Below, piece after piece: positions 1-53,210 of a DNA stretch of 64,000 nucleotides. Within the stretch, counting starts at the first letter, position 1. Each line of letters begins with the position of its first letter. The translations under genes were made by a program, and so were the position numbers. The DNA lies in the NCBI GenBank assembly GCA_037134695.1, contig JBAXLU010000001.1, positions 11,551 through 75,550 on the forward strand, written 5' to 3'. Under the pieces are notes generated by a model. That model had not been told where the DNA came from, did no database searches, and saw only the letters and a list, made by a program, of their open reading frames with translations. This stretch comes from Candidatus Nomurabacteria bacterium. Lineage in GTDB: Bacteria > Patescibacteriota > Minisyncoccia > Phycocordibacterales > UBA5272.

Positions 1-184
1 TTTTTCCTGTGTCCCTTCGTAGCATAATCGCGAAGTGGGATCTGTAACAATTTTTTCTGTTTTATAATTCTCGTACTAATCTCAATTTTATTCTAATCGA
101 ACCAACCCAGATACATTTTACCAGCTTCGGGTTATAATTTCTCTAACTCCTAATTTATCCCGCCAAGGCGGTGACTCCTAACTC

Positions 185-3611: not shown

Positions 3612-4267
3612 TGTATAATTCCACAACTATGATGCAAATCACCACAGCGCCACGCGCACCAAAAGAAACAAAGAAAGATGGTTTTATTCCAGCTGTATAT
3701 TACGGCGCACAACAGGCCTCAACTCCTATTTTTATAGATTTTATTGAATTTAAGAAGGTTTTAGCAGACGCTGGTGAATCAAGTTCAATTACTCTTATTA
3801 CAGAGCATGGTAACGAAGTTGCTATGATTCAAGATGTTCAGCTTGATCCAGTAAAGGGTAACGCTGTGCATGCAGACTTTTACATTCTTAAAAAGGGACA
3901 AAAAGTACACGTTAAAACCCCAATTATTTTTGTTGGAGAGTCACAAGCTGTTAAAGAAGGTGGTGTGCTTGTAAAAGTAATGTATGAACTTTCTGTTGAA
4001 GGAGATCCAACTAAACTTCCTCATGAGTTCTCTGTAGATATTTCTGCTCTTGTTAATAAAGATAGTGTTATTCATGTAAAGGATTTGATTCTTCCAGCAG
4101 GTGTTGAGCTTTATCATGTAGATCCTCTAGATGCTGTTGTTTCTATTTCAGTTGCTCAGGAAGAAATTGCGATAGATGCTCCAGTTGCTGATTTATCAAC
4201 TATTGAAGTTGAAGCTAAAGGTAAGAAAGAAGGCGACGCGGAAGAAGGTGGAACAGACGCAGAATAA
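3611..4267 (+). CDS. rplY: 50S ribosomal protein L25 / general stress protein Ctc (long form)
   Basis: 218-aa ORF; N-terminus APRAPKETKKDGFIPAVYYG is typical L25/Ctc; acidic tail partly encoded by an ACGCAGAA/ACGCGGAAG repeat unit (4236-4275). Confidence 0.8.
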   Translation: MYNSTTMMQITTAPRAPKETKKDGFIPAVYYGAQQASTPIFIDFIEFKKVLADAGESSSITLITEHGNEVAMIQDVQLDPVKGNAVHADFYILKKGQKVHVKTPIIFVGESQAVKEGGVLVKVMYELSVEGDPTKLPHEFSVDISALVNKDSVIHVKDLILPAGVELYHVDPLDAVVSISVAQEEIAIDAPVADLSTIEVEAKGKKEGDAEEGGTDAE

Positions 4268-4293
4268 CGCGGAAAAATTCAAAAAAATACTAA

Positions 4294-12853: not shown

Positions 12854-12890
12854 CTTTCAACTTTATGAACTTTAAAAACTTTCAACTAAG

Positions 12891-13754
12891 ATGGCCGTTC
12901 ATAAATTTCATTTTTATGATAAAATGAAATTTATGAACGGCCATCTCCACCCCATTACTCTCGCAGTTGCACGTATTTCCGACATCTTTTCCAAGATGGG
13001 TTTTGATACAGTTGATGGTCCAGAGCTAGAAGATGAATGGCACAATTTTGATGCACTAAACGTTCCAGCTGATCACCCAGCGAGAGATATGCAGGATACC
13101 TTCTTCATCAGAATGGGTACTGATGAAGCGCAGACTAACGCAGAACGGACGCAGAAGGTCGCAGAAGGAATACAAAGGACAGGCATTAATAAATTCGGTG
13201 AACCCATGGGCTATGTTCTTCGTACACATACTAGTAACATGCAGATCCGCACTATGGAAAAATATACAGCGGAAGGTAAAGAATTGCCTATTGCTATTTG
13301 TTGCCCGGGAAAAGTTTTTCGCAATGAAGCAACAGACGCAACCCACGAAGCACAATTTCATCAAATAGAAATGTTATATGTTGCAAAAGATGCATCACTA
13401 GCTATGATGATAGGTGTAATTGAAAAGTTTTTCTCAGAATTTTTTGGAACAGATTTAGTGATTAGACTTCGTTCAAGTTATTTTCCATTCGTTGAGCCGG
13501 GCAATGAAGTGGATATGCAATGTTTTAAGTGTAAAGGTAGTGGTTGTAATATTTGTAAACAAACTGGTTGGATAGAAATAGGTGGTGCTGGAATGGTGCA
13601 TCCAAAAGTATTAGAAGCAGGAGGAATTAATCCAGCTGATTATCGTGGTTTTGCTTTTGGTTGTGGTATAGACAGAATGGTAATGCTTAAATATGGAATT
13701 GAAGATGTTCGTCTTTTGTATAATGGAGATTTAAGAGTGGTCAATCAATTTTAA
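12891..13754 (+). CDS. pheS: phenylalanine--tRNA ligase alpha subunit
   Basis: 287-aa ORF; class II motifs (LRTHTS, FRNEATDATHEAQFHQIEM, GAGMVHPKVL, GFAFGCGIDRM); alternative start at 12927; carries an in-frame short-repeat insertion at 13127-13185. Confidence 0.85.
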   Translation: MAVHKFHFYDKMKFMNGHLHPITLAVARISDIFSKMGFDTVDGPELEDEWHNFDALNVPADHPARDMQDTFFIRMGTDEAQTNAERTQKVAEGIQRTGINKFGEPMGYVLRTHTSNMQIRTMEKYTAEGKELPIAICCPGKVFRNEATDATHEAQFHQIEMLYVAKDASLAMMIGVIEKFFSEFFGTDLVIRLRSSYFPFVEPGNEVDMQCFKCKGSGCNICKQTGWIEIGGAGMVHPKVLEAGGINPADYRGFAFGCGIDRMVMLKYGIEDVRLLYNGDLRVVNQF

Positions 13755-13756
13755 TT

Positions 13757-15721
13757 ATGAAATTTTCTAAAGCGTGGTTACAAGATTATATTGTCGAGAC
13801 ACTTCCAGAAGATGGTGTGATTTCAGAGGCTTTTAATAAAAAATCTTTTGAAGTTGAAGAAACGCGGACTATCGCGGAACAAACGCAGAATGACGCGGAA
13901 GGAATACAAACTGACGATTATAAGGATACGGTTTTTGATATTAAAGTTTTACCAAATAGAGCCCACGATGCATTAGGCCACAGGGGTATGGCCCGTGAAC
14001 TTTGTGCAGATTTTGGTTTTACATTTAAGGAAGATGAGAGAATAAATAAAAACGAATCTTTTTTTGACTCAACTATTCCGGCTCCAGCAGTTTCAATAGA
14101 AAATGGTGAAAAATGTACTCGTTTTATGGGAATAAGAATAGATGGTGTAATGGTCACAGAAAGCCCAAAATGGCTCAGAGAAAGGCTTGAATCTATAGGA
14201 CAGCGAAGTATTAACAATATTGTTGATATCACTAACTATGTGCAGTTTTCGCTCAATAAGCCTATGCATGCTTATGACACAAGGAGTATTAAGGGTATTT
14301 TGGGTGCGCGCGTAGCGCGCACTGGTGAGATGCTAGTTACTTTGGATGAAAAGTCACTTAATCTTGATACTCAAACTCTTGTAATTGTAGATGATGAAAA
14401 AGTTCTAGGGCTAGCTGGAATAAAAGGAGGAAAATTTAGTGGTATACAATCTGATACAACAAGTGTTATTTTAGAGAGTGCAAATTTCGAACCAACCCTT
14501 ATCCGCAAGACTTCACAGAAATATGATTTAAGAACAGATGCTTCAAAACGTTTTGAAAATGGAATTGCAAACTCTTTAATTGAAGAAGGTTTATATATGA
14601 CCGCAAATCTAATTAAAGAATTATGTGCTGATGCGAAGGTTTCACTTGTAACAGATATTTATCCAAAGGTAGATGAGATATTTTCATTATCTGTTTCACT
14701 TGATGAAATTAATGCAATATTAGGTACAAAATATTCTAGGGAAGAAGTAGAAGAAACATTTAAAAAACTTTTATTTAAATTTACGACAAAAGGAAATGTT
14801 TATACAGTTGAAGTTCCATCTGAAAGACTAGATATACGAATTAAAGAAGATGTCACAGAAGAAGTGGGACGTATTATTGGATATGACAAACTTATACCAA
14901 CTCTTCCTGTTTTAAATCGCGTAGGTCTTCCTCATAAGAGAATGTTTTATGAAAATAAAATAAGAGAAATTTTAGTGAGAAATGGTTTCTCTGAAGTCAT
15001 GACTTATACTTTTGGTGATCAGGGTGAGGTGGAACTTGTAAAAGGATTGGCTCTAGATAAAGAAAAACTTCGTGACAGTTTAGGTAATGGTATATTAAAT
15101 TCTCTATCATTAAATCTTTACAACGCACCACTTCTCGGTGAAAAAACAATTAAGATTTTTGAAATTGGGAATGTTTTTGGAAAAGATACAGAGACAAGAC
15201 ATTTATCTCTTGCAATTGATGACGGTGCGAAGAAAAGTAATTTCACAGATGGAGTCGATATGATATTAGTTGAAATTAAACGCACTTTAGAATTGCCATC
15301 ACTTGAATGTACAACAGTTTCAACTAAACCTTATGTTATTGAAATTGATTTTGATACAATGATTGCATCACTTCCGGAGCCTACAAATTATGAAGCGCCT
15401 ACATTCACGTCTTTACCTTTCGTTAATTACAAATCAGTCTCGTCTTATCCGTTTATTGCCCGTGATATTGCTATGTGGGTACCTGCTGTTACAACATGGG
15501 AGAGTATCAATAATCTTTGTGCTGAAGTACGGAATACTCTTGTTACTCGTGTTGATCTTTTTGATACTTTCACGAAAGAAATAGAGGGCATAAGAAAAAC
15601 TTCTTTCGCATTTCGCTTAGTTTTTCAAAGTTATGAAAAGACATTAACAGATGAAGAGGTGAATGAAATGATGGAAGCTTATTATAAAGTTTTTAAGGAA
15701 AAAGGTTACGAGATTCGCTAA
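13757..15721 (+). CDS. pheT: phenylalanine--tRNA ligase beta subunit (short form lacking N-terminal OB domain)
   Basis: 654-aa ORF directly after pheS; B3/B4 and B5 and C-terminal anticodon-binding-like regions recognisable; in-frame short-repeat insertion at 13866-13912. Confidence 0.8.
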   Translation: MKFSKAWLQDYIVETLPEDGVISEAFNKKSFEVEETRTIAEQTQNDAEGIQTDDYKDTVFDIKVLPNRAHDALGHRGMARELCADFGFTFKEDERINKNESFFDSTIPAPAVSIENGEKCTRFMGIRIDGVMVTESPKWLRERLESIGQRSINNIVDITNYVQFSLNKPMHAYDTRSIKGILGARVARTGEMLVTLDEKSLNLDTQTLVIVDDEKVLGLAGIKGGKFSGIQSDTTSVILESANFEPTLIRKTSQKYDLRTDASKRFENGIANSLIEEGLYMTANLIKELCADAKVSLVTDIYPKVDEIFSLSVSLDEINAILGTKYSREEVEETFKKLLFKFTTKGNVYTVEVPSERLDIRIKEDVTEEVGRIIGYDKLIPTLPVLNRVGLPHKRMFYENKIREILVRNGFSEVMTYTFGDQGEVELVKGLALDKEKLRDSLGNGILNSLSLNLYNAPLLGEKTIKIFEIGNVFGKDTETRHLSLAIDDGAKKSNFTDGVDMILVEIKRTLELPSLECTTVSTKPYVIEIDFDTMIASLPEPTNYEAPTFTSLPFVNYKSVSSYPFIARDIAMWVPAVTTWESINNLCAEVRNTLVTRVDLFDTFTKEIEGIRKTSFAFRLVFQSYEKTLTDEEVNEMMEAYYKVFKEKGYEIR

Positions 15722-19580: not shown

Positions 19581-21752
<2,172 letters not shown>

Positions 21753-40828: not shown

Positions 40829-42616
40829 ATGCAACAAGAAATTCGTAACATCGCCATTATCGCTCACGTTGACCACGGCAAGACCACTCTTACAGATGGG
40901 CTTATGAAGCAGTGTGGTGTTGGTGTTGAAGGCCAAACAATGGACTCTAATCCAATGGAAAAAGAGCGCGGTATTACGATTACTGCGAAGAATACTTCTG
41001 TTCCATATAAAGGTGTAAAGATAAATATTTTGGATACTCCAGGTCACGCGGATTTCGGTTCTGAGGTTGAACGTGTTCTTCGCTCTATTGACTGTGTGTT
41101 GCTTGTCGTAGATGCCCAGGAAGGCCCTATGCCTCAGACACGTTTCGTATTAAAGAAGTCTCTTGAACTTGGTATTAAGCCAATTGTTGTTATAAATAAA
41201 ATTGATAAGCCAGCAGCTGACCCAAAGAAAGTTCACGATGAAGTTTTTGAATTATTTATGGAGCTCGGTGCTAACGATGAACAATTAGATTTTACAACCG
41301 TATATGCTATTGGTCGCCAAGGTATTGCAATGAGAAGTATGGATGATGAAAAGAAAGATTTAACACCATTACTTGATGTGATTCTTGAAAAAGTTCCAAA
41401 GGCAACAGGAAATATAAATAATCCATTTAAGGCGCAGGTGTTTAATCTCGCTTATGATAATTTCCTTGGACGTATGGCTGTAGCTAGAATTTATGATGGT
41501 ATAGCAAAAGTTGGTGAAGAAATTATTGTAAAGAAGGCAACTGGCGAAACAAGAAAAGGTAAAATTACAAAAATTTATACTTTTAATGGTATTGAAAGAG
41601 TGGATGCACAAACTGCTGAGGCGGGGGATATTGCTATGATCGCAGGATTTTCTGATATTTTTATTGGTGAAACTTTTATAAAAAATGCTGATCAGGAACC
41701 GATGGAGGCCATTCATATTGATGAGCCAACTATTGCTCTTCACTTCTTGGTTAATGATTCACCATTTGCTGGTAAGGAAGGAAAATTCGTAACAGGTCGT
41801 CAGATTCGTGATCGTCTTGAGAAAGAACTTGAAATAAACGTCGGTCTTCGTGTTGATTTTGATATGGATAAATATTTAGTTTATGGTCGTGGTGAACTTC
41901 ACATTGGTGTTTTGCTTGAGACAATGCGTCGTGAAGGTTATGAACTTCAAGTTTCACAGCCACAAGTTATTTTCCATGAAAAAGATGGAGTTAAGGAAGA
42001 GCCATATGAAGAACTTGTTATTGATGTACCAGTAGAATCATCTGGTATCGTTATGGAAAAGTTGGGACGCCGTAAAGCGATGATTACTGATATGTCAGAA
42101 AAGCATGGAGTGAATCGTATTAAGGCTGAGATTCCTACTCGTGGATTACTTGGATATCGTGGAGAGTTTGTTATTGATACAAAAGGTCTTGGTATTTTAT
42201 CAGCACGTTATTTAAAGTTTGCCTCATACGCTGGAGAAATTACTCGTCGCCTTGTTGGTTCTATGACTTCAATGGCGAATGGTAAGTCACTAGCTTTCTC
42301 TCTTTGGAATCTTCAAGATAGAGGAGTTATTTATATTCTACCTAACACTGAAGTTTATGAAGGTATGGTTATTGGTAATACTTCAAAAGGTGAAGAGATG
42401 ATGGTGAATCCAACAAAAGGCAAACAACTTTCAAACATGCGTTCTTCTGGTACTGATGAAGCCGTAACTCTTGTTCCAGCTTGGGAAATTACAATTGAAC
42501 GTGGTCTTGAAATTATGAATGCTGATGAATATTTGGAAGTTACACCAAAGTCAGTACGTTTGAGAAAGCAGCTTCTTACCGAGTCCGACCGCGCCAAAGC
42601 TGGAAGAAAGTCATAA
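40829..42616 (+). CDS. typA: translational GTPase TypA/BipA
   Basis: 595-aa ORF; G1 AHVDHGKTTL, G3 DTPGHADF, G4 NKID, EF-G-like domains. Confidence 0.9.
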   Translation: MQQEIRNIAIIAHVDHGKTTLTDGLMKQCGVGVEGQTMDSNPMEKERGITITAKNTSVPYKGVKINILDTPGHADFGSEVERVLRSIDCVLLVVDAQEGPMPQTRFVLKKSLELGIKPIVVINKIDKPAADPKKVHDEVFELFMELGANDEQLDFTTVYAIGRQGIAMRSMDDEKKDLTPLLDVILEKVPKATGNINNPFKAQVFNLAYDNFLGRMAVARIYDGIAKVGEEIIVKKATGETRKGKITKIYTFNGIERVDAQTAEAGDIAMIAGFSDIFIGETFIKNADQEPMEAIHIDEPTIALHFLVNDSPFAGKEGKFVTGRQIRDRLEKELEINVGLRVDFDMDKYLVYGRGELHIGVLLETMRREGYELQVSQPQVIFHEKDGVKEEPYEELVIDVPVESSGIVMEKLGRRKAMITDMSEKHGVNRIKAEIPTRGLLGYRGEFVIDTKGLGILSARYLKFASYAGEITRRLVGSMTSMANGKSLAFSLWNLQDRGVIYILPNTEVYEGMVIGNTSKGEEMMVNPTKGKQLSNMRSSGTDEAVTLVPAWEITIERGLEIMNADEYLEVTPKSVRLRKQLLTESDRAKAGRKS

Positions 42617-42735
42617 ATTATCCATCTACTTTGTCGCTACGAAATTTTTCTTCGTCAACGTAGACCTACTACGTCTCCTAGAAAAATTCCTAAGCTTCGC
42701 GTAGCTGGAGCAATTTCTGACTTTCTTTATAGATA
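42617..42735. repeat. 3'-UTR repeat family E, copy after typA
   Basis: CCATCTACTTTGTCGCTACGAAATTTTTCTTCGTCAACGTAGACCTACTACGTCTCCTAG; its reverse complement is found at 47095-47215. Confidence 0.55.
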
Positions 42736-42766
42736 TTTTTTGAAAATTTTTTGTTATACTTATTAA

Positions 42767-43504
42767 ATGAACAATGGATTTGCAAATACTGGTCCTACAT
42801 CTACTGAATTAAGTCTAGGAAATAATGAAACTTCTCTAGAAAAAAAACAACAAAAGTGGGATGAGAAAATGGCTGAAATGGTGAAACCAGACACATATGG
42901 ATATGTTTTAGATGAAGGAATAAGAGAGACTGTTGTTGCACTGCAATTACTAGGATTTAATACAACTCAATCAGATCAAGGTAATTATGGTAATTCACCA
43001 TGGGTAGAAGTTAAAGGAGTAACACCGGAATATTTTTATAAAGGAGAGAAAGAATTAAGAGTTAGTACTATGTTGCAATTAGGGATTTCACCTGATGAAG
43101 TTGATGAACGTTCTCAATTTTTCAATAAAGAAAAACAGGTTGATCTTGAAGAAGGCGTAAGAAAAAAACTTATGAATGATAATGCTCCATACACTGAGGA
43201 GTATAAAAAGTGGAGAGAAGAAACTCTTATACTTGCTGAGAGGTTAGAAAAAATCATTAAAGAATTTTATTTATCACCACAAAAATCTACAGAACCCTCT
43301 AATCTACATGTTTATGTGCAGTTTCCTTACCGTACTCATAATCATCCTCCATATATACAAGATACTCCGTTTCTTAAAGTAAAAACAAGTTCAAATGAAA
43401 ATCTTTCTGAAGAAGAAAGAAAACAGCTAGTAGCACAAGCTAAAAATGAAATGATACAATTTACGGAATTCCTAAAGGATAGGTATTTTACTGATAATAT
43501 TTAA
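42767..43504 (+). CDS. hypothetical protein
   Basis: 245-aa ORF, hydrophilic, no motif recognised. Confidence 0.3.
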   Translation: MNNGFANTGPTSTELSLGNNETSLEKKQQKWDEKMAEMVKPDTYGYVLDEGIRETVVALQLLGFNTTQSDQGNYGNSPWVEVKGVTPEYFYKGEKELRVSTMLQLGISPDEVDERSQFFNKEKQVDLEEGVRKKLMNDNAPYTEEYKKWREETLILAERLEKIIKEFYLSPQKSTEPSNLHVYVQFPYRTHNHPPYIQDTPFLKVKTSSNENLSEEERKQLVAQAKNEMIQFTEFLKDRYFTDNI

Positions 43505-43559
43505 AATATTATGAAATTGCTGTAAATATAGACAAATTAAAATATGTTAAACTTAAGTC

Positions 43560-44702
43560 ATGCTTCCGAAATCCTTAGAAGGTGATGAAAATAGACAAGA
43601 GGAAATTCCTCCTGAATCTTTTTCTCAATTACTTGCTTTTATAAATAATCTTGAGGTAATTTGTAGACCTCCACCAGAGGTTATTTTTGAAGAAGTTTAT
43701 AATTTAGTTAATAGCGTAATGCCTTATGATCTTAATGCTGCTGAAAAATATGAGAATAGTGTTCTTTTGGAAAGTGGTTTAGATGGATATAACCAAACTA
43801 GAAAAGTATCTTTAACAAACTATTTTAAACTTAATCGCTATGATGAATCTAAGGCAGTGTGCAAACATCAAGCCCTTTTAGTTTCAGTTTTAATTGAAAA
43901 ACTTGTTGAAAATCAAATACTCCCCAACGGGACAAGGGTCACTCGTGGTAGTAATATTGCTTATCTAAAAGAAGATGCCGATGGTCACGCTTGGACTGAT
44001 ATTTTCTTACCAAGGAATGTTGGTGAAAAAGAAAGAGTTTTTATTATTGATGTGGCTCAACATATTGTTGGTGAATTAGTAAATCTTAAAACAGGAAGTT
44101 ATATTAATGGTAAACAATGTAATTTGGGTGGGGAAAATGATGTTTGGTCAGATTCTAAGTTATGGCCGTATCAAAGATTTAATGATGGCGCATCCCCAAA
44201 ACACTTACAAGGAGCATATAGTTTAGTGCTTGAAAATAGACAGCCAGATTTTTTAAAAACAGAACAGCAAAGACATCTCATAACAAGAAATACGAGTGTT
44301 GATAAAGGATATGAATGGGCAGGAGTTGGTGATGCAGCCGTTGTTGTTGATTGGAATAAATATTACACTTCTGGATATAGTGAACTTGAAAAAAGACTTA
44401 CTTTTTCAATATATAAAAGAGTAAAAGAAGGTGATATCGTTATTAAAAAATATTTCTATAATGACTCTTCAGCGGAATCTCCAGAAATTAAAATACAAAC
44501 TGCTCAATCTTTTTCTGCTTTATATTTTTTTATAAATGAATTAGGCACTATACGTGGGAGTCGCCTTACCTATACACCAGAACAGCTTATAGATTTGATA
44601 GACAGGGTTAGAATTGGGAAATTACATTTAGATGTTATAACTTCATCTTTTGGAATACGTGATAAAGTTGAAGAATTACTTGGACAATTTGTAAAACCTT
44701 AA
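43560..44702 (+). CDS. hypothetical protein with transglutaminase-like Cys-His-Asp core
   Basis: 380-aa ORF; AVCKHQALLVSVL ... DGHAWTDIF resembles the papain/transglutaminase-like catalytic arrangement. Confidence 0.4.
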   Translation: MLPKSLEGDENRQEEIPPESFSQLLAFINNLEVICRPPPEVIFEEVYNLVNSVMPYDLNAAEKYENSVLLESGLDGYNQTRKVSLTNYFKLNRYDESKAVCKHQALLVSVLIEKLVENQILPNGTRVTRGSNIAYLKEDADGHAWTDIFLPRNVGEKERVFIIDVAQHIVGELVNLKTGSYINGKQCNLGGENDVWSDSKLWPYQRFNDGASPKHLQGAYSLVLENRQPDFLKTEQQRHLITRNTSVDKGYEWAGVGDAAVVVDWNKYYTSGYSELEKRLTFSIYKRVKEGDIVIKKYFYNDSSAESPEIKIQTAQSFSALYFFINELGTIRGSRLTYTPEQLIDLIDRVRIGKLHLDVITSSFGIRDKVEELLGQFVKP

Positions 44703-45238: not shown

Positions 45239-45384
45239 TCTAAACTGGATAATCTGTAAAAGAAAATGCCACCCGTTAGGGTGGCATTCTCATGTGTTCT
45301 TCATCTATAAGCCGAGTTCTGTATTTGTATAGACATTTATCTTGTCTCTACATTGCTGTAAAGATCTAGCGACACTCTCCCAAC

Positions 45385-45515
45385 GCTCCGCATTGGGCGC
45401 AGAAGTACGCAGACTTAACGCTGACTGACGCAGAAGAATGCAATTTGTATTTTTCTGCGACCTTCTGCGTTCGTTCAGCGATGTTCTGCGCTTAATGCGA
45501 AGCATTAAGAGCACG
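45385..45515. repeat. imperfect ~110-bp palindrome built from ACGCAGAAG/ACGCGGAAG units (family D)
   Basis: left arm GCGCAGAAGTACGCAGACTTAACGCTGACTGACGCAGAAGAATGC, right arm is its near reverse complement; same units occur in frame in rplY, pheS, pheT and gyrB; ORFs 45305-45592(-) and 45438-45698(+) here are probably not genes. Confidence 0.6.
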
Positions 45516-45762
45516 GTCTTGCACACACGTATGTATTTAGCCGTTTCAGCCGGACTAAACCGGATCGTTTCTGTTCGCAACACAATGGTCACCCATGATG
45601 GGAATTACCCACTACGCTTGTTATGTAAACATAACTATGTGCTCGGACTTTCCTCACGATATTACTATCGCGCGTCTACCCAACAAAGAACTTTATAACG
45701 ATACTACATTTTTACTAGTATGTCAAAGTTTTTATTTAGTATATGTTATAATATATATTAAT

Positions 45763-47037
45763 ATGATTTTCAAGAACTCAGTATTGCTCGCCATATTTTC
45801 AATGCTTTCGGTATTGCTTGGTATTGTTCGCGACAGACTTTTATCTACCCACGTTGGCGTTGGTCCAATTCTCGATATTTACAATGCATCCTTTAGACTT
45901 CCTGATTTTCTTTATGCAATGTCTTTAGCTTTTGTAACAGCAGGAACTGTTGTTCCTTTTTTAACTATTGAAAATAAATCAGGAAATGTTATTGATTCAC
46001 GTCACAGACTTTCATCCATCTCACTTTTCTTTGCAGGGGTCGCATCGCTTGTTGGTTTATTTATAGTGGTGACAATACCATTTTATGCACATTTAATCGT
46101 CCCTGGATTTACAGCGGAACAGACTGTAACATTTATTAATGTTACAAGAATATTAATGATACAACCGATTTTGCTCGGTATCACATCTTTGATTTCATGT
46201 TTCGCACAAATGAAGAATCACTTTGTTCTTTACGGTATTGCGCCACTTGGTTATTCTCTCGGAATCATCGGTGGCATTATTTATCTTTATCCTATTTATG
46301 GAGTGCACGGATTAATTTATGGAGTAATTATTGGCGCTATTATTTCTTTTTGTATTCAGTTGTATTCATTACGAGGAACAAAATTTATTGAAGTACTTCC
46401 ATATTTTTCTTTCAAACATATTAAAGAACTTTTCAGACTTTCATTTCCACGTACTGGTGTAAATGTTTTGACACAATTAAGAACTATTTTCTTCACAGCT
46501 TTTGCAACGACATTAGGACCGGGAGCTCTTTCTAGTTATTTATTTGCACAAAGAATTACTGATGCTGTGACACAAATTATTCAACAAAGTATTACAACCG
46601 CAAGTTTGCCAGTTCTCTCAAAAGAGTTTGTGGAAAATAGAATACATGAATATAGACGTGTTGTGAAGCAGTATGTTATTATTCTCGGTGCTATTGGATT
46701 TTTTGCATCGGTTACAATTTATTCTTTGCAAGATATTTTTATCACAATTTTATATGGGAATACTCCCGCACATGATTTGATTGCTTTCTTTTTGGTTGGA
46801 TTTTTGATTGCATTACCACTTCAGATGATGATTGGCTATTATTCTATTTCACTTTATTCTGCCAAAGACACAAAAAGTGTTTTTTATTCAAACTTTATTT
46901 CTACATTAGTTGCAGTTTTTGCTTGTTATTCAACACAACAATTAGGTAATATAAGTCTGGTTTATGGAGTCATTGCCATGACCGTTTCTAATTTTGTAGT
47001 TATTTCTCTTTTGTATACCAAGAAAAGACTACTTTAA
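45763..47037 (+). CDS. murJ: lipid II flippase MurJ (MOP superfamily)
   Basis: N-terminus from 45763 (MIFKNSVLLAIFSMLSVLLGIVRDRLLSTHVGVGPILDIYNASFRLPDFL) matches MurJ; multi-pass membrane protein; the ORF-track start 45595 is probably a 5' over-extension into the repeat region. Confidence 0.7.
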   Translation: MIFKNSVLLAIFSMLSVLLGIVRDRLLSTHVGVGPILDIYNASFRLPDFLYAMSLAFVTAGTVVPFLTIENKSGNVIDSRHRLSSISLFFAGVASLVGLFIVVTIPFYAHLIVPGFTAEQTVTFINVTRILMIQPILLGITSLISCFAQMKNHFVLYGIAPLGYSLGIIGGIIYLYPIYGVHGLIYGVIIGAIISFCIQLYSLRGTKFIEVLPYFSFKHIKELFRLSFPRTGVNVLTQLRTIFFTAFATTLGPGALSSYLFAQRITDAVTQIIQQSITTASLPVLSKEFVENRIHEYRRVVKQYVIILGAIGFFASVTIYSLQDIFITILYGNTPAHDLIAFFLVGFLIALPLQMMIGYYSISLYSAKDTKSVFYSNFISTLVAVFACYSTQQLGNISLVYGVIAMTVSNFVVISLLYTKKRLL

Positions 47038-49878: not shown

Positions 49879-50280
49879 ATGGTGTATTATGGACGAATTC
49901 CTTTTAGAAGACCAAAAAGCATTTCGACAGGACAGCTTGTTTTGTTGATGACAGCTTTTCCTTTTATTCTTGCTGTTTTATTTGTAGTCGCACGTGCTCT
50001 TACAAAATATGTAGTATGTCCAGCATTAATCAACACCAGTTCTCTTTGTGGAGGGTATTACAATGTAGGAATGTTACTGATTATATTTTTTACTTTTCTT
50101 ATAATTTCCTTCCTTATTTTTATAATTATAGTTGTAAAGAGATTTTCTAGTAGAAATAATCTTAAAAATCTTTCTCAATTTCAAGAGTCAAAAAATAAGA
50201 TTTTACAAATGGTAAAAGATTCTAATCCAAATATTACTGATGAAGAATTAGATAGAATAATGAAACAAGCAGGTGTTTAA
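49879..50280 (+). CDS. hypothetical membrane protein
   Basis: 133-aa ORF with two hydrophobic segments. Confidence 0.3.
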   Translation: MVYYGRIPFRRPKSISTGQLVLLMTAFPFILAVLFVVARALTKYVVCPALINTSSLCGGYYNVGMLLIIFFTFLIISFLIFIIIVVKRFSSRNNLKNLSQFQESKNKILQMVKDSNPNITDEELDRIMKQAGV

Positions 50281-50521
50281 AAATGCAGAACTAACGCGGA
50301 ATAATACAAAAAATAAAGGGTGACTCCTACGAAGCCACCCTGTATTTTCCATAAACTAGTAACCAATAACTATTTAATTAAGGCGATTAGTGAAAAACCA
50401 ACCATACCAACAATAGCTAGTATTGAAATTATGGCCCAGATCTTATGAAGAAGTTTTCTATTTTTTGATGTGAAAAGCATATATGTTTTTTTTGATATGT
50501 TAGAATAATACTAACAATAAT

Positions 50522-53084: not shown

Positions 53085-53157
53085 GCTGGGATAGCTCAGT
53101 TGGTAGAGCATTTGCCTGAAGAGCAAGGGGTCGGCAGTTCGAGCCTGCCTCCCAGCA
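53085..53157 (+). tRNA. tRNA-Phe (anticodon GAA)
   Basis: GCTGGGA-TA-GCTC-AGTTGGTA-GAGC-A-TTTGC-CTGAAGA-GCAAG-GGGTC-GGCAG-TTCGAGC-CTGCC-TCCCAGC-A. Confidence 0.85.
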
Positions 53158-53164
53158 CAAAAAA

Positions 53165-53199
53165 CAAAAACGAAGTCACATGACTTCGTTTTTGTATTT
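53165..53199 (+). terminator. intrinsic terminator after tRNA-Phe
   Basis: AAAAACGAAGTC-ACAT-GACTTCGTTTTT then GTATTTT. Confidence 0.7.
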
Positions 53200-53210
53200 T
53201 GTGCTGGGAG

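What the first reader, a model, noticed from the sequence alone, without database searches (positions are those of the whole stretch)
45385..45515. Intergenic ~110-bp imperfect palindrome assembled from the same units; overlapping ORFs are probably spurious
The two arms are near reverse complements of each other around 45437-45455. They are built from GCGCAGAAG / ACGCAGAC / GACGCAGAAGAATGC units. This could be the 'source' or a hotspot form of the element family, or a protein-binding site. The ORF-track entries 45305-45592(-), 45438-45698(+) and the 5' extension of 45595-47037 all run through it and are best explained as repeat-induced open frames. The real murJ start is most likely at 45763.
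Basis: seen in the sequence. Interest (0 to 1): 0.5.

Follow-up and report, generated by a model that had tools for sequence, protein, structure and literature searches.

The report
Foldback repeat inserted in RNase P RNA
The "intergenic palindrome" is a 131-base foldback repeat inserted into the gene for RNase P RNA of a tiny candidate-phyla-radiation (CPR) bacterium, and it belongs to a widespread, apparently undescribed repeat family that also sits inside ribosomal RNAs and, in frame, inside essential protein genes.

Summary
The palindrome is real but it is not intergenic. Rfam places a full-length bacterial type A RNase P RNA gene (rnpB) on the minus strand at 45292-45691, and the palindrome (45379-45509) lies inside it.

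- **Insertion:** About ten close relatives carry only a short P16 hairpin at this position (18 nt in the closest). The palindrome is therefore a lineage-specific insertion or replacement.
- **Anatomy:** an 8-bp/triloop hairpin, four CGCNGAM boxes spaced 10-11-10 nt, a loop, four inverted boxes, and a second hairpin.
- **Same family elsewhere:** It occurs at other hairpin tips of rnpB in other CPR genomes (J5/7, P9, P12, P15-17). It also occurs in 16S and 23S rRNA, and in frame in protein genes, including this window's pheS and pheT (weaker traces in gyrB and bL25). A metagenome scan found at least 120 loci.
- **ORFs and murJ:** The three overlapping ORFs are spurious because they overlie an RNA gene. 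murJ starts at 45763.
- **Most likely reading:** a non-autonomous foldback element, comparable to Rickettsia palindromic elements and to rRNA intervening sequences. It is transcribed within RNase P RNA as a tolerated peripheral rod.
- **Unknown:** how it moves, and whether the RNA keeps it or has it cut out.
- **Literature:** my searches found no description of this family.

The parts
45292..45691 (-). rnpB, the RNase P RNA gene (bacterial type A, reduced form: P13/P14 absent, an extra hairpin in J5/7)
   Evidence: Rfam RF00010: 104.1 bits, E 9.6e-31, full model 1-367. The ortholog in L001 without the insert scores 117.6 bits.
45379..45509 (-). Inserted foldback element (131 nt) that takes the place of the short P16 hairpin distal to P15
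   Evidence: blastn against L001 breaks exactly at window 45378|45510. L001 has 18 nt there. Alignment A1 shows the element missing in L001, L002, L003, L004 and L007. Palindrome arms.
45491..45509 (-). 5' terminal hairpin of the element in RNA sense (CUUAAUGC-UUC-GCAUUAAG)
   Evidence: Inverted repeat I5. The same hairpin (UUUAAUGCUUCGCAUUAAG) starts the L010 copy at a different rnpB site. Homologous GYCARTGC-NNN-GCAYTGRC hairpins occur in other copies.
45453..45490 (-). 5' arm: four boxes, CGCAGAA-CAU-CGCUGAA-CGAA-CGCAGAA-GGU-CGCAGAA
   Evidence: nhmmer with the arm profile gives E 4e-6.
45436..45452 (-). Apical loop region (AAAUACAAAUUGCAUUC). The AAUACAAA tail is shared with the pheS and pheT copies.
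   Evidence: Register alignment of the copies; fold.
45398..45435 (+). 3' arm of the element. The boxes read CGCAGAA-GTA-CGCAGAC-TTAA-CGCTGAC-TGA-CGCAGAA on the + strand.
   Evidence: nhmmer E 2.3e-10.
45379..45397 (-). 3' terminal hairpin of the element in RNA sense (CCCAAUGC-GGA-GCGUUGGG)
   Evidence: Seen in the sequence. Homologous GCCAATGC-NNN-GCATTGGC hairpins occur in L183, L104, L093, L123 and L199. The triloops of the two terminal hairpins covary.
45698..45726 (-). Promoter-like site for rnpB (TTGACA-17 nt-TATCGT)
   Evidence: 10 of 12 consensus matches. It places +1 at about 45691, the Rfam 5' end. This is a consensus match only.
45262..45291 (.). G+C-rich hairpin directly after the rnpB 3' end and after the DUF192 stop codon; probably a bidirectional terminator
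   Evidence: Inverted repeat I4, 13-nt arms, 92% complementary. A T-run follows on the minus strand in the sequence. The strict terminator scan did not call it.
45763..47037 (+). murJ (lipid II flippase), true start
   Evidence: Pfam MurJ 6.8e-31. Conserved N-terminus and upstream stops in relatives.
13129..13176 (+). Solo arm plus loop tail of the same family, in frame in pheS (a 20-aa insert)
   Evidence: PheS homologs of 253 aa lack the insert.
13863..13910 (+). Solo arm plus loop tail, in an open frame within pheT
4235..4274 (+). Degenerate copy across the 3' end and stop codon of the bL25/TL5 gene
   Evidence: E 0.009.
21427..21464 (+). Degenerate copy in frame in gyrB (acidic linker before the C-terminal domain)
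   Evidence: Weak profile match, E 0.47.

Best explanation
The palindrome is a full-length copy of a non-autonomous foldback repeat that has landed inside rnpB, the gene for the catalytic RNA of RNase P. It replaces the short hairpin (P16) at the outer end of the P15 arm.

Shown:
- The element lies in rnpB.
- It is absent from the nearest relatives.
- It has a fixed architecture: terminal hairpin, four phased CGCNGAM boxes, loop, four inverted boxes, terminal hairpin.
- Related copies sit at the tips of other peripheral helices of rnpB, in 16S and 23S rRNA, and in frame in essential protein genes in many CPR/Patescibacteria genomes.

Inferred:
- The element spreads by copy-and-paste within and between genomes, by an unknown trans-acting activity.
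- It survives only where the host molecule tolerates an extra protruding arm (a helix tip or a surface loop).
- In this gene it is transcribed with the ribozyme and folds on itself into a rod of about 60 bp with bead-like internal loops. The rod points away from the catalytic core, so RNase P stays functional.

It is unknown whether the rod is kept or cut out by RNase III, as happens with rRNA intervening sequences. The overlapping ORFs are by-products of an RNA gene.
For: - rnpB call, full length, E 9.6e-31. A promoter-like site places +1 at the Rfam 5' end.
- Absence in relatives. Alignment A1 shows L001, L002, L003, L004 and L007 with a short hairpin that carries compensatory changes. blastn breakpoints: 45379-45509 in the window against 18 nt in L001, at about 90% flanking identity. 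nhmmer finds the 5' and 3' halves of rnpB adjacent to each other in about 10 relatives.
- The same element, with the same terminal hairpins, sits at a different rnpB site (J5/7) in L010.
- L055 has two copies that are 97% identical, at J5/7 and P15-17 of one rnpB.
- P12 is occupied in L104 and L149. P9 is occupied in L123 and L093.
- Copies lie in 16S and 23S rRNA.
- A full palindrome lies in frame in lepA of L021.
- The window's pheS insert is absent from the 253-aa homologs.
- About 15 full elements and 53 solo arms lie in long open frames.
- Folding z-scores are -7.1 and -6.9.
- Eight RNA-gene copies share a consensus rod with 12 compensatory pairs. They fold 15 kcal/mol better on the host-sense strand.
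Against: - No mobility machinery was found, and no target-site duplication (flanks read). Transposition is therefore inferred from distribution only.
- The element replaces the native hairpin rather than simply interrupting it. A plain cut-and-paste insertion does not explain this.
- The two arms of one element are no more alike than arms of unrelated elements: box identity 0.835 against 0.85, spacers 0.36 against 0.46. The conserved feature is therefore the phased boxes, not the hairpin. That hints at a recognising protein and possibly at a function.
- The sense-strand polarity in RNA genes could mean RNA-level function rather than mere tolerance.
- No transcript data exist to show that the ribozyme is active or that the rod is retained.
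Confidence: 0.8

Rival explanations
1. The element is a functional RNA module, not a passenger. The phased CGCNGAM boxes would form a binding platform for a CPR-specific protein, recruited to RNase P RNA and rRNAs for assembly, stabilisation or localisation. K-turn/L7Ae modules shared by archaeal rRNA, RNase P RNA and sRNAs are the comparison.
For: - Boxes are conserved at about one helical turn while spacers and arm-to-arm complementarity are not.
- In the 7 RNA-gene copies of this subfamily whose terminal hairpins could be typed, the polarity follows the host transcript. Those copies are the window, L010, L093, L104, L123, L183 and L199.
- G.U pairs fall on the sense strand: consensus energy -55.3 against -40.7 kcal/mol.
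- rnpB is occupied repeatedly, in 8 genes including the window's.
Against: - The element is absent from the nearest relatives, whose rnpB is otherwise about 97% identical.
- Only about 3 of roughly 55 rnpB genes linked to lepA in relatives carry it.
- It sits at four different rnpB positions, which is hard to reconcile with one structural role.
- Single arms and full copies lie in frame in unrelated proteins.
Confidence: 0.12
2. The element behaves as an intervening sequence. After transcription, RNase III cleaves the rod out. The mature RNase P RNA would then be two pieces held together by P15 and tertiary contacts, as in fragmented 23S rRNAs.
For: - It replaces a hairpin tip exactly as rRNA intervening sequences do, and the family occupies 16S and 23S helices.
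- It forms a long double-stranded rod with an 18-bp outer stem.
- A survey of CPR rRNA insertions notes many short non-intron insertions at the classical RNase III intervening-sequence sites (PMC11270868).
Against: - No transcript data are available.
- The rod is interrupted every 6-7 bp by 3x3 or 4x4 internal loops, which makes it a poor RNase III substrate apart from the outer stem.
- I know of no precedent for a fragmented bacterial RNase P RNA (own knowledge).
- This is a sub-case of the best explanation, not an alternative origin.
Confidence: 0.2
3. One reading: an intergenic DNA palindrome that acts as a protein-binding site or cruciform, or is the source copy or a generation hotspot of the repeat family.
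For: - The phased boxes are compatible with protein binding on one face of duplex DNA.
- The DNA hairpin is more stable than shuffles, z -5.0.
Against: - The site is inside rnpB.
- The element is derived and absent in relatives.
- The family is present in many unrelated CPR genomes and genes.
- The 17-nt centre and the mismatched spacers disfavour cruciform extrusion (inference).
Confidence: 0.03
4. Assembly artefact: a foldback chimera in the metagenome-assembled contig.
For: - Repeats of this family do break assemblies. The L055 contig ends inside a copy.
Against: - The arms are only 72% complementary, whereas a foldback artefact would be a perfect inverted repeat.
- Homologous elements with the same mismatch pattern occur in independent assemblies.
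- The junctions with rnpB are clean on both sides.
Confidence: 0.02

Closest known systems
Rickettsia palindromic elements (RPEs; Ogata et al. 2000 Science 290:347; Ogata et al. 2002 Genome Res 12:808; both cited through PMC6649704)
   Same: - Palindromic repeats of about 100-150 nt, dispersed in a small reduced genome.
- Inserted in frame in essential protein genes without destroying them.
- Also present in non-protein-coding DNA.
- Copies decay over time.
- No known transposase.
   Different: - The host phylum is unrelated (Patescibacteria).
- The internal architecture differs: 4+4 boxes of 7 nt phased at 10/11 nt, plus two terminal triloop hairpins.
- The arms are not true complements of each other.
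- Structured RNAs (rRNAs and RNase P RNA) are heavily used as hosts.
- Sequence homology to RPE consensus sequences could not be tested here.
Intervening sequences (IVS) of bacterial 23S/16S rRNA, excised by RNase III
   Same: - Extended hairpins of 100-200 nt that replace the tip of a peripheral helix.
- Sporadic among close relatives.
- Tolerated because the host RNA core is untouched.
- CPR rRNAs carry many short non-intron insertions at IVS sites (PMC11270868).
   Different: - Here the host is RNase P RNA.
- The same sequence family also lies in protein genes.
- Excision is untested.
STRR repeats inside helix P12 of RNase P RNA in heterocyst-forming cyanobacteria (Vioque 1997 NAR 25:3471; title seen in the reference list of PMC2858038)
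   Same: - A genome-wide short tandem repeat family found inside rnpB.
- It lengthens a peripheral helix without abolishing function. The functional claim is from my own knowledge of that paper.
   Different: - STRRs are heptamer tandem repeats in P12. They have no inverted-array or terminal-hairpin architecture.
- Here the units are 10/11 nt, inverted, and in this window lie at P15-17. P12 is used in L104 and L149.
MITEs and foldback transposons (inverted arrays of short tandem repeats); IS200/IS605-derived palindrome-associated elements
   Same: - Small and non-coding.
- Imperfect terminal inverted repeats.
- Subterminal hairpins.
- Inverted arrays of short tandem units.
- Strand polarity.
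   Different: - No target-site duplication.
- No conserved target tetranucleotide.
- No cognate transposase seen.
- The element replaces the native hairpin rather than simply inserting.
Diverged CPR RNase P RNAs (Lui, Nielsen and Arkin 2021, PMC8172020)
   Same: - That paper reports CPR rnpB genes with 'large extensions of helices' (for example an extended P15), missing P13/P14/P16/P17, and frequent loss of the UGG motif. This matches the host gene here.
   Different: - That paper does not attribute the extensions to a repeat family. The word stem 'palindrom' has 0 occurrences in it.

Membership tests
Bacterial RNase P RNA, type A (RF00010); applies to the host gene | Covariance-model score above the curated gathering threshold, over the full model | tested here: met
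   104.1 bits against a gathering score of 100, model positions 1-367, E 9.6e-31.
Bacterial RNase P RNA, type A (RF00010); applies to the host gene | Conserved P4 core strands (GAGGAAAGUCCG ... ACAGAAnUCGGCUUA) and P1-P3, P5-P12, P15 and P18 | tested here: met
   The alignment shows both P4 strands with posterior probabilities of 9 or *. P13/P14 are absent, which is known for many CPR (PMC8172020).
Bacterial RNase P RNA, type A (RF00010); applies to the host gene | Catalytic activity on pre-tRNA | not testable with these tools
   Needs a biochemical assay.
Rickettsia palindromic elements (RPE) | Palindromic repeat of about 100-150 nt in many copies per genome | tested here: met
   The element is 131 nt. 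The 64-kb window holds 4 strong and 3 weak arms. At least 120 metagenome loci carry the module.
Rickettsia palindromic elements (RPE) | In-frame insertion in functional protein-coding genes | tested here: met
   pheS, lepA of L021, and about 15 full elements in long open frames.
Rickettsia palindromic elements (RPE) | Sequence homology to the RPE-1..8 consensus sequences; Rickettsia host | not tested
   No RPE consensus was available in the tools. The host is Patescibacteria, so membership in the family proper is unlikely. The comparison is an analogy only.
MITE (transposase-mobilised miniature inverted-repeat element) | Terminal inverted repeats | tested here: met
   The two 19-nt ends are imperfect inverted repeats (14 of 19 positions in L183 by my own count). 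Their triloops covary.
MITE (transposase-mobilised miniature inverted-repeat element) | Target-site duplication flanking the element | tested here: not met
   Flanks in the window (GUGCU|...|AGAGUG), L010, L183, L104, L093 and L123 show no direct repeat. The native hairpin is replaced.
MITE (transposase-mobilised miniature inverted-repeat element) | Related autonomous element or transposase | tested here: inconclusive
   No pair of inverted arrays encloses an ORF of more than 1 kb in the 200 loci. There is no match in the phage or plasmid collections. Whole genomes were not searched.
rRNA-type intervening sequence (IVS) | Extended hairpin that replaces the tip of a peripheral helix of a stable RNA and is sporadic among relatives | tested here: met
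rRNA-type intervening sequence (IVS) | Excision from the transcript by RNase III | not testable with these tools
   Needs transcript end mapping.
Any Rfam family; applies to the element itself | Covariance-model match | tested here: not met
   No match at E <= 1 for 45371-45517. The element regions of the related loci scanned gave no hit other than the host RNA genes.

The most novel reading that the evidence does not exclude
CPR/Patescibacteria carry a previously undescribed class of foldback mobile element: 4+4 boxes phased one helical turn apart, between two triloop hairpins. It colonises the tips of helices in essential structured RNAs (RNase P RNA, 16S, 23S) and surface loops of essential proteins. 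Its polarity follows the host transcript, which points to a single-strand (RNA or ssDNA) mechanism and an unknown box-binding protein. This would be a second, independent invention of 'coding palindromes' after Rickettsia. It would also explain part of the odd helix extensions and protein insertions of CPR.
Probability: 0.45. Interest if true: 0.75.

Novelty: new variant of a known kind. Interest (0 to 1): 0.65.

Why it matters
- **Annotation:** three ORF calls and a long murJ extension should be replaced by an rnpB gene. Gene finders and Rfam thresholds nearly miss it (104 against 100 bits) because of the insert. Copies in L010 (72.7 bits), L123 (84.8) and L093 (32.2) fall below threshold for the same reason. 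This adds to the reported 'missing' RNase P RNAs in CPR genomes.
- **Biology:** a single repeat family appears to account for extra arms in RNase P RNA and rRNAs, and for inserted peptides in aminoacyl-tRNA synthetases, LepA, GatB and others, in very small genomes where selfish DNA is thought to be rare.
- **Natural experiments:** the family marks where essential RNAs and proteins tolerate insertions.
- **Assembly:** the repeats break metagenome assemblies.
- **Open question:** which activity moves the element, and what reads the phased boxes.

Tried and rejected
- **Real small proteins.** ORFs 45305-45592(-), 45438-45698(+) and the extension 45595-45762 have no Pfam hit and overlie rnpB. Rejected.
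- **Known RNA family for the element itself.** No Rfam match at E <= 1.
- **Phage or plasmid origin.** No blastn match in either collection. Only 2 matches in viral contigs, both high-GC TGCTGAC/TGCGGAC repeats that look unrelated.
- **Classical MITE.** No target-site duplication and no conserved target tetranucleotide in eight flanks. The bases next to the element tend to be T at the 5' side and A(A/G) at the 3' side, which may simply extend the rod.
- **A once-perfect palindrome that later diverged.** The arms of one element are not more alike than arms of different elements. Rejected.
- **TIGR arrays** (turned up in literature). Their spacers, about 9-10 nt from my own knowledge of that work, do not fit the 3-4-nt spacers here. 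Rejected.
- **Local slippage as the sole origin.** It cannot give the same hairpin-array-loop-array-hairpin layout at unrelated sites. Rejected, although arrays do vary in unit number (L101, L106).
- **Sense/antisense bias of solo arms in ORFs (39:14).** Stop codons in the three frames already predict about 2:1, so I do not count this as evidence.
- **Failed or unattempted steps.** One Rfam call on 20 loci failed internally. The first version of the wobble-count script was misregistered and I replaced it with RNAalifold on both strands. A covariance model of the whole rnpB was not attempted because the length limit would refuse it.
- **Literature.** Six full-text searches and seven look-ups by id, two of which were for papers not held, found no description of this repeat family. 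That is absence of evidence only.

Full report
**Observation.**
With a 6-nt seed, the repeat finder reports inverted arms 45377-45443 and 45445-45511, each 67 nt and 72% complementary. The arms hold eight copies of a 7-nt box, CGCNGAM. Four lie on the + strand and four on the - strand, and the spacing is 10-11-10 nt in each arm. CGCAGAAG occurs 5 times in the window against 0.71 expected, and 0 of 100 shuffles reach 5. Six of the 18 CGCAGA sites in 64 kb lie in this 93-nt stretch. The region folds much better than shuffled controls: z is -7.1 for RNA of the minus strand, -6.8 for RNA of the plus strand and -5.0 for DNA. It is nevertheless a loose palindrome in which only the boxes pair. A stricter repeat search (seed 8, minimum 24 nt) does not list it.

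**The region is not intergenic.**
Rfam finds a full-length bacterial type A RNase P RNA on the minus strand at 45691..45292. The score is 104.1 bits against a gathering score of 100, E 9.6e-31, over model positions 1-367. Both P4 core strands are present. The 43 model positions that I take to be P13/P14 are reduced to 2 nt. About 110 nt are scored as an insertion in the P15-P17 arm, and that insertion is the palindrome. A promoter-like site (TTGACA-17 nt-TATCGT, 10 of 12 matches) on the minus strand at 45726-45698 places +1 at the Rfam 5' end. A G+C-rich hairpin at 45262-45291 follows the 3' end.

The organism belongs to the Patescibacteria (CPR). The relatives found through LepA are MAGs labelled Candidatus Nomurabacteria or Paceibacterota. 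Published work on CPR RNase P RNAs describes the same kind of reduced gene, with missing P13/P14/P16/P17 and 'large extensions of helices', but does not link the extensions to repeats (PMC8172020).

**The palindrome is an insertion.**
- In the closest relative, L001 (99% LepA identity, about 90% nucleotide identity), the blastn alignment breaks exactly at window 45378|45510. The window has 131 nt where L001 has 18 nt.
- L001, L002, L003, L004, L007 and L010 all carry a short hairpin there with compensatory changes: ACAAUG/CAUUGU, CUAAUG/CAUUAG, CCCGUA/UACGGG and CUUGUA/UACAAG.
- nhmmer finds the two halves of rnpB adjacent to each other in about ten relatives.
- Without the insert, L001's rnpB scores 117.6 bits.

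The short hairpin is therefore ancestral, and the 131-nt element took its place in the window's lineage.

**Anatomy of the element.**
In RNA sense it reads as follows:
- 5' hairpin CUUAAUGC-UUC-GCAUUAAG (45509-45491);
- four boxes (45490-45453);
- loop AAAUACAAAUUGCAUUC (45452-45436);
- four inverted boxes (45435-45398);
- 3' hairpin CCCAAUGC-GGA-GCGUUGGG (45397-45379).

The minimum-free-energy fold is one long rod. The two terminal segments pair with each other (18 bp), and the boxes form 6-7-bp helices separated by 3x3 or 4x4 internal loops.

**The family.**
In the same window, single arms with the same loop tail (GGAATACAAA) lie in open frames within pheS (13129) and pheT (13863). Weaker, degenerate matches lie in gyrB (21427) and at the 3' end of the bL25 gene (4235).
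- PheS homologs of the basic 253-aa length lack the 20-aa insert. Several relatives carry unit-derived peptides at the same site.
- Among the relatives, L021 has a full palindrome in frame in lepA.
- L010 has the same element, with the same terminal hairpins, in rnpB but at the J5/7 hairpin.
- L055 has two copies that are 97% identical, at J5/7 and at P15-17 of one rnpB. Its contig ends inside one of them.
Viral contigs gave 2 hits that look unrelated.

Rfam scans of some of these loci place copies in several stable RNAs:
- rnpB P12 in L104 and L149;
- rnpB P9 in L123 and L093;
- 16S rRNA in L122, L164 and L183, where L183's flanks match helix 6 by eye;
- 23S rRNA or its leader in L084, L162, L167, L198 and L199.

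Of 152 arms, 53 solo arms and about 15 full elements lie in long open frames. By eye these include IleRS, CysRS, GatB and TrmD.

**Structure tests.**
- The two arms of one element are not more alike than arms of unrelated elements. Box identity is 0.835 against 0.85, spacer identity 0.36 against 0.46, and the variable box position 0.21 against 0.37. What is conserved is the phased box array, not a perfect hairpin.
- Eight copies from RNA genes, oriented with their host transcripts, align end to end. They give a consensus rod of 45 pairs, 12 of which show compensatory changes, including the triloops of the two terminal hairpins.
- The reverse strands give 39 pairs and 15 kcal/mol less (-40.7 against -55.3), because wobble pairs sit on the host-sense strand.
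- In the 7 RNA-gene copies of this subfamily whose terminal hairpins could be typed, the GTCARTGC/UUAAUGC-type hairpin is 5' in the transcript.

The sample is small. It suggests either selection at the RNA level or a single-strand mechanism. For the window's own copy the strand difference is small (-69.0 against -65.5 kcal/mol).

**The ORFs and murJ.**
ORFs 45305-45592(-), 45438-45698(+) and the 5' extension of 45595-47037 have no Pfam match and overlie rnpB. From 45763 the protein is MurJ (6.8e-31). Its N-terminus MIFKNSVLL is identical in L001, L002 and L010. In-frame stops lie 15 codons upstream in L001 and 1 codon upstream in L010.

**Mechanism.**
My best reading, at 0.8 confidence for the package, is a non-autonomous foldback element. 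It is copied into new sites by an unknown activity. It persists only at helix tips and surface loops. Here it is transcribed within RNase P RNA as a peripheral rod beyond P15. From general knowledge of bacterial RNase P structure, and because the relatives' P15 arm ends in a simple hairpin there, I infer that this position faces away from the catalytic core.

Steps that are shown:
- location in rnpB;
- derived state;
- family membership;
- recurrent use of hairpin tips;
- in-frame copies in protein genes.

Steps that are inferred:
- mobility;
- neutrality;
- retention in the mature RNA.

**Comparison with what is known.**
The closest analogues are:
- Rickettsia palindromic elements, which are in-frame coding palindromes (cited via PMC6649704);
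- rRNA intervening sequences (PMC11270868);
- STRR repeats in P12 of cyanobacterial RNase P RNA (Vioque 1997, cited in PMC2858038);
- foldback and MITE-type elements.

The element fails the MITE criterion of a target-site duplication and has no Rfam match. Its box architecture differs from all of these. My full-text searches found no description of it.

**Limits.**
No transcript, activity or population data are available. The metagenome scan was truncated. The strict search pattern fixes the 10-11-10 spacing, although a looser pattern gave the same spacing for most copies. The taxonomy of the metagenome loci was not determined.

Noticed in passing
window 12889-12946: A perfect 26-nt-arm palindrome with a 6-nt loop. 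Its right arm contains the annotated PheS start (ATGAACGGCCAT at 12933, MNGHLHP as in P0001). The ORF listing start at 12891 is 14 codons too long. It could be a terminator of the upstream gene or a hairpin that sequesters the pheS start.
   Followed up: no
window 42598-44701: About 2.1 kb holding two ORFs without Pfam hits (42767-43504, 43560-44702). It is absent from the closest relative L001, where the same flanks are about 125 nt apart. This is a strain-variable island next to the rnpB locus.
   Followed up: partly
L003 7675-7965 (rnpB, minus strand): An unrelated structured insertion of about 100 nt, not built of CGCNGAM boxes, sits in the J5/7 hairpin of rnpB. This is the same site the foldback element uses in L010 and L055.
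   Followed up: no
L093 4844-5149: A very short RNase P RNA-like gene (306 nt, 32 bits). It has P1-P4 and P8, then the foldback element, then directly the 3' P4 strand, with most of the specificity domain missing. It may be a minimal ribozyme, a deletion between ACAGAA repeats, or a misassembly.
   Followed up: no
L104 6048-6619: This rnpB is 572 nt long. Besides the foldback element in P12 it carries a second, A+U-rich insertion of about 150 nt in the P15-17 arm.
   Followed up: no
PheS homologs P0005, P0017, P0019, P0025, P0038, P0067, P0079, P0112 (alignment A2, columns 236-275): A second, different recurrent insertion (GLIATGDSVATPDQ...LGVGC, 19-39 aa) lies between the zinc-binding cysteine pairs of PheS in many relatives. 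It may be another in-frame repeat family.
   Followed up: no
L025 10001-12472: The lepA match spans 2472 nt instead of about 1800, which implies an insertion of about 670 nt in the gene. Intein, intron or another element was not examined.
   Followed up: no
window 53149-53210: Inverted repeat with 30-nt arms, 97% complementary. It starts within the 3' end of tRNA-Phe (53085-53158), so the tRNA acceptor 3' strand is part of a long hairpin.
   Followed up: no
window 45292-45691 and relatives: This lineage's rnpB lacks P13/P14. It has an extra hairpin (GUUAUG-UUUA-CAUAAC) in J5/7 whose apex, AUGUUUACAU, is the same as that of the ancestral P16 hairpin in L001. The 3' side of the L15 loop in relatives (AAGAGU) lacks the GGU that pairs with tRNA CCA. 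L010 retains P13/P14.
   Followed up: partly
window 50285-50303: A two-unit fragment of the box array (GCAGAACTAACGCGGAATA) lies just after the stop codon of ORF 49879-50280. The profile match is weak, E 0.2.
   Followed up: no
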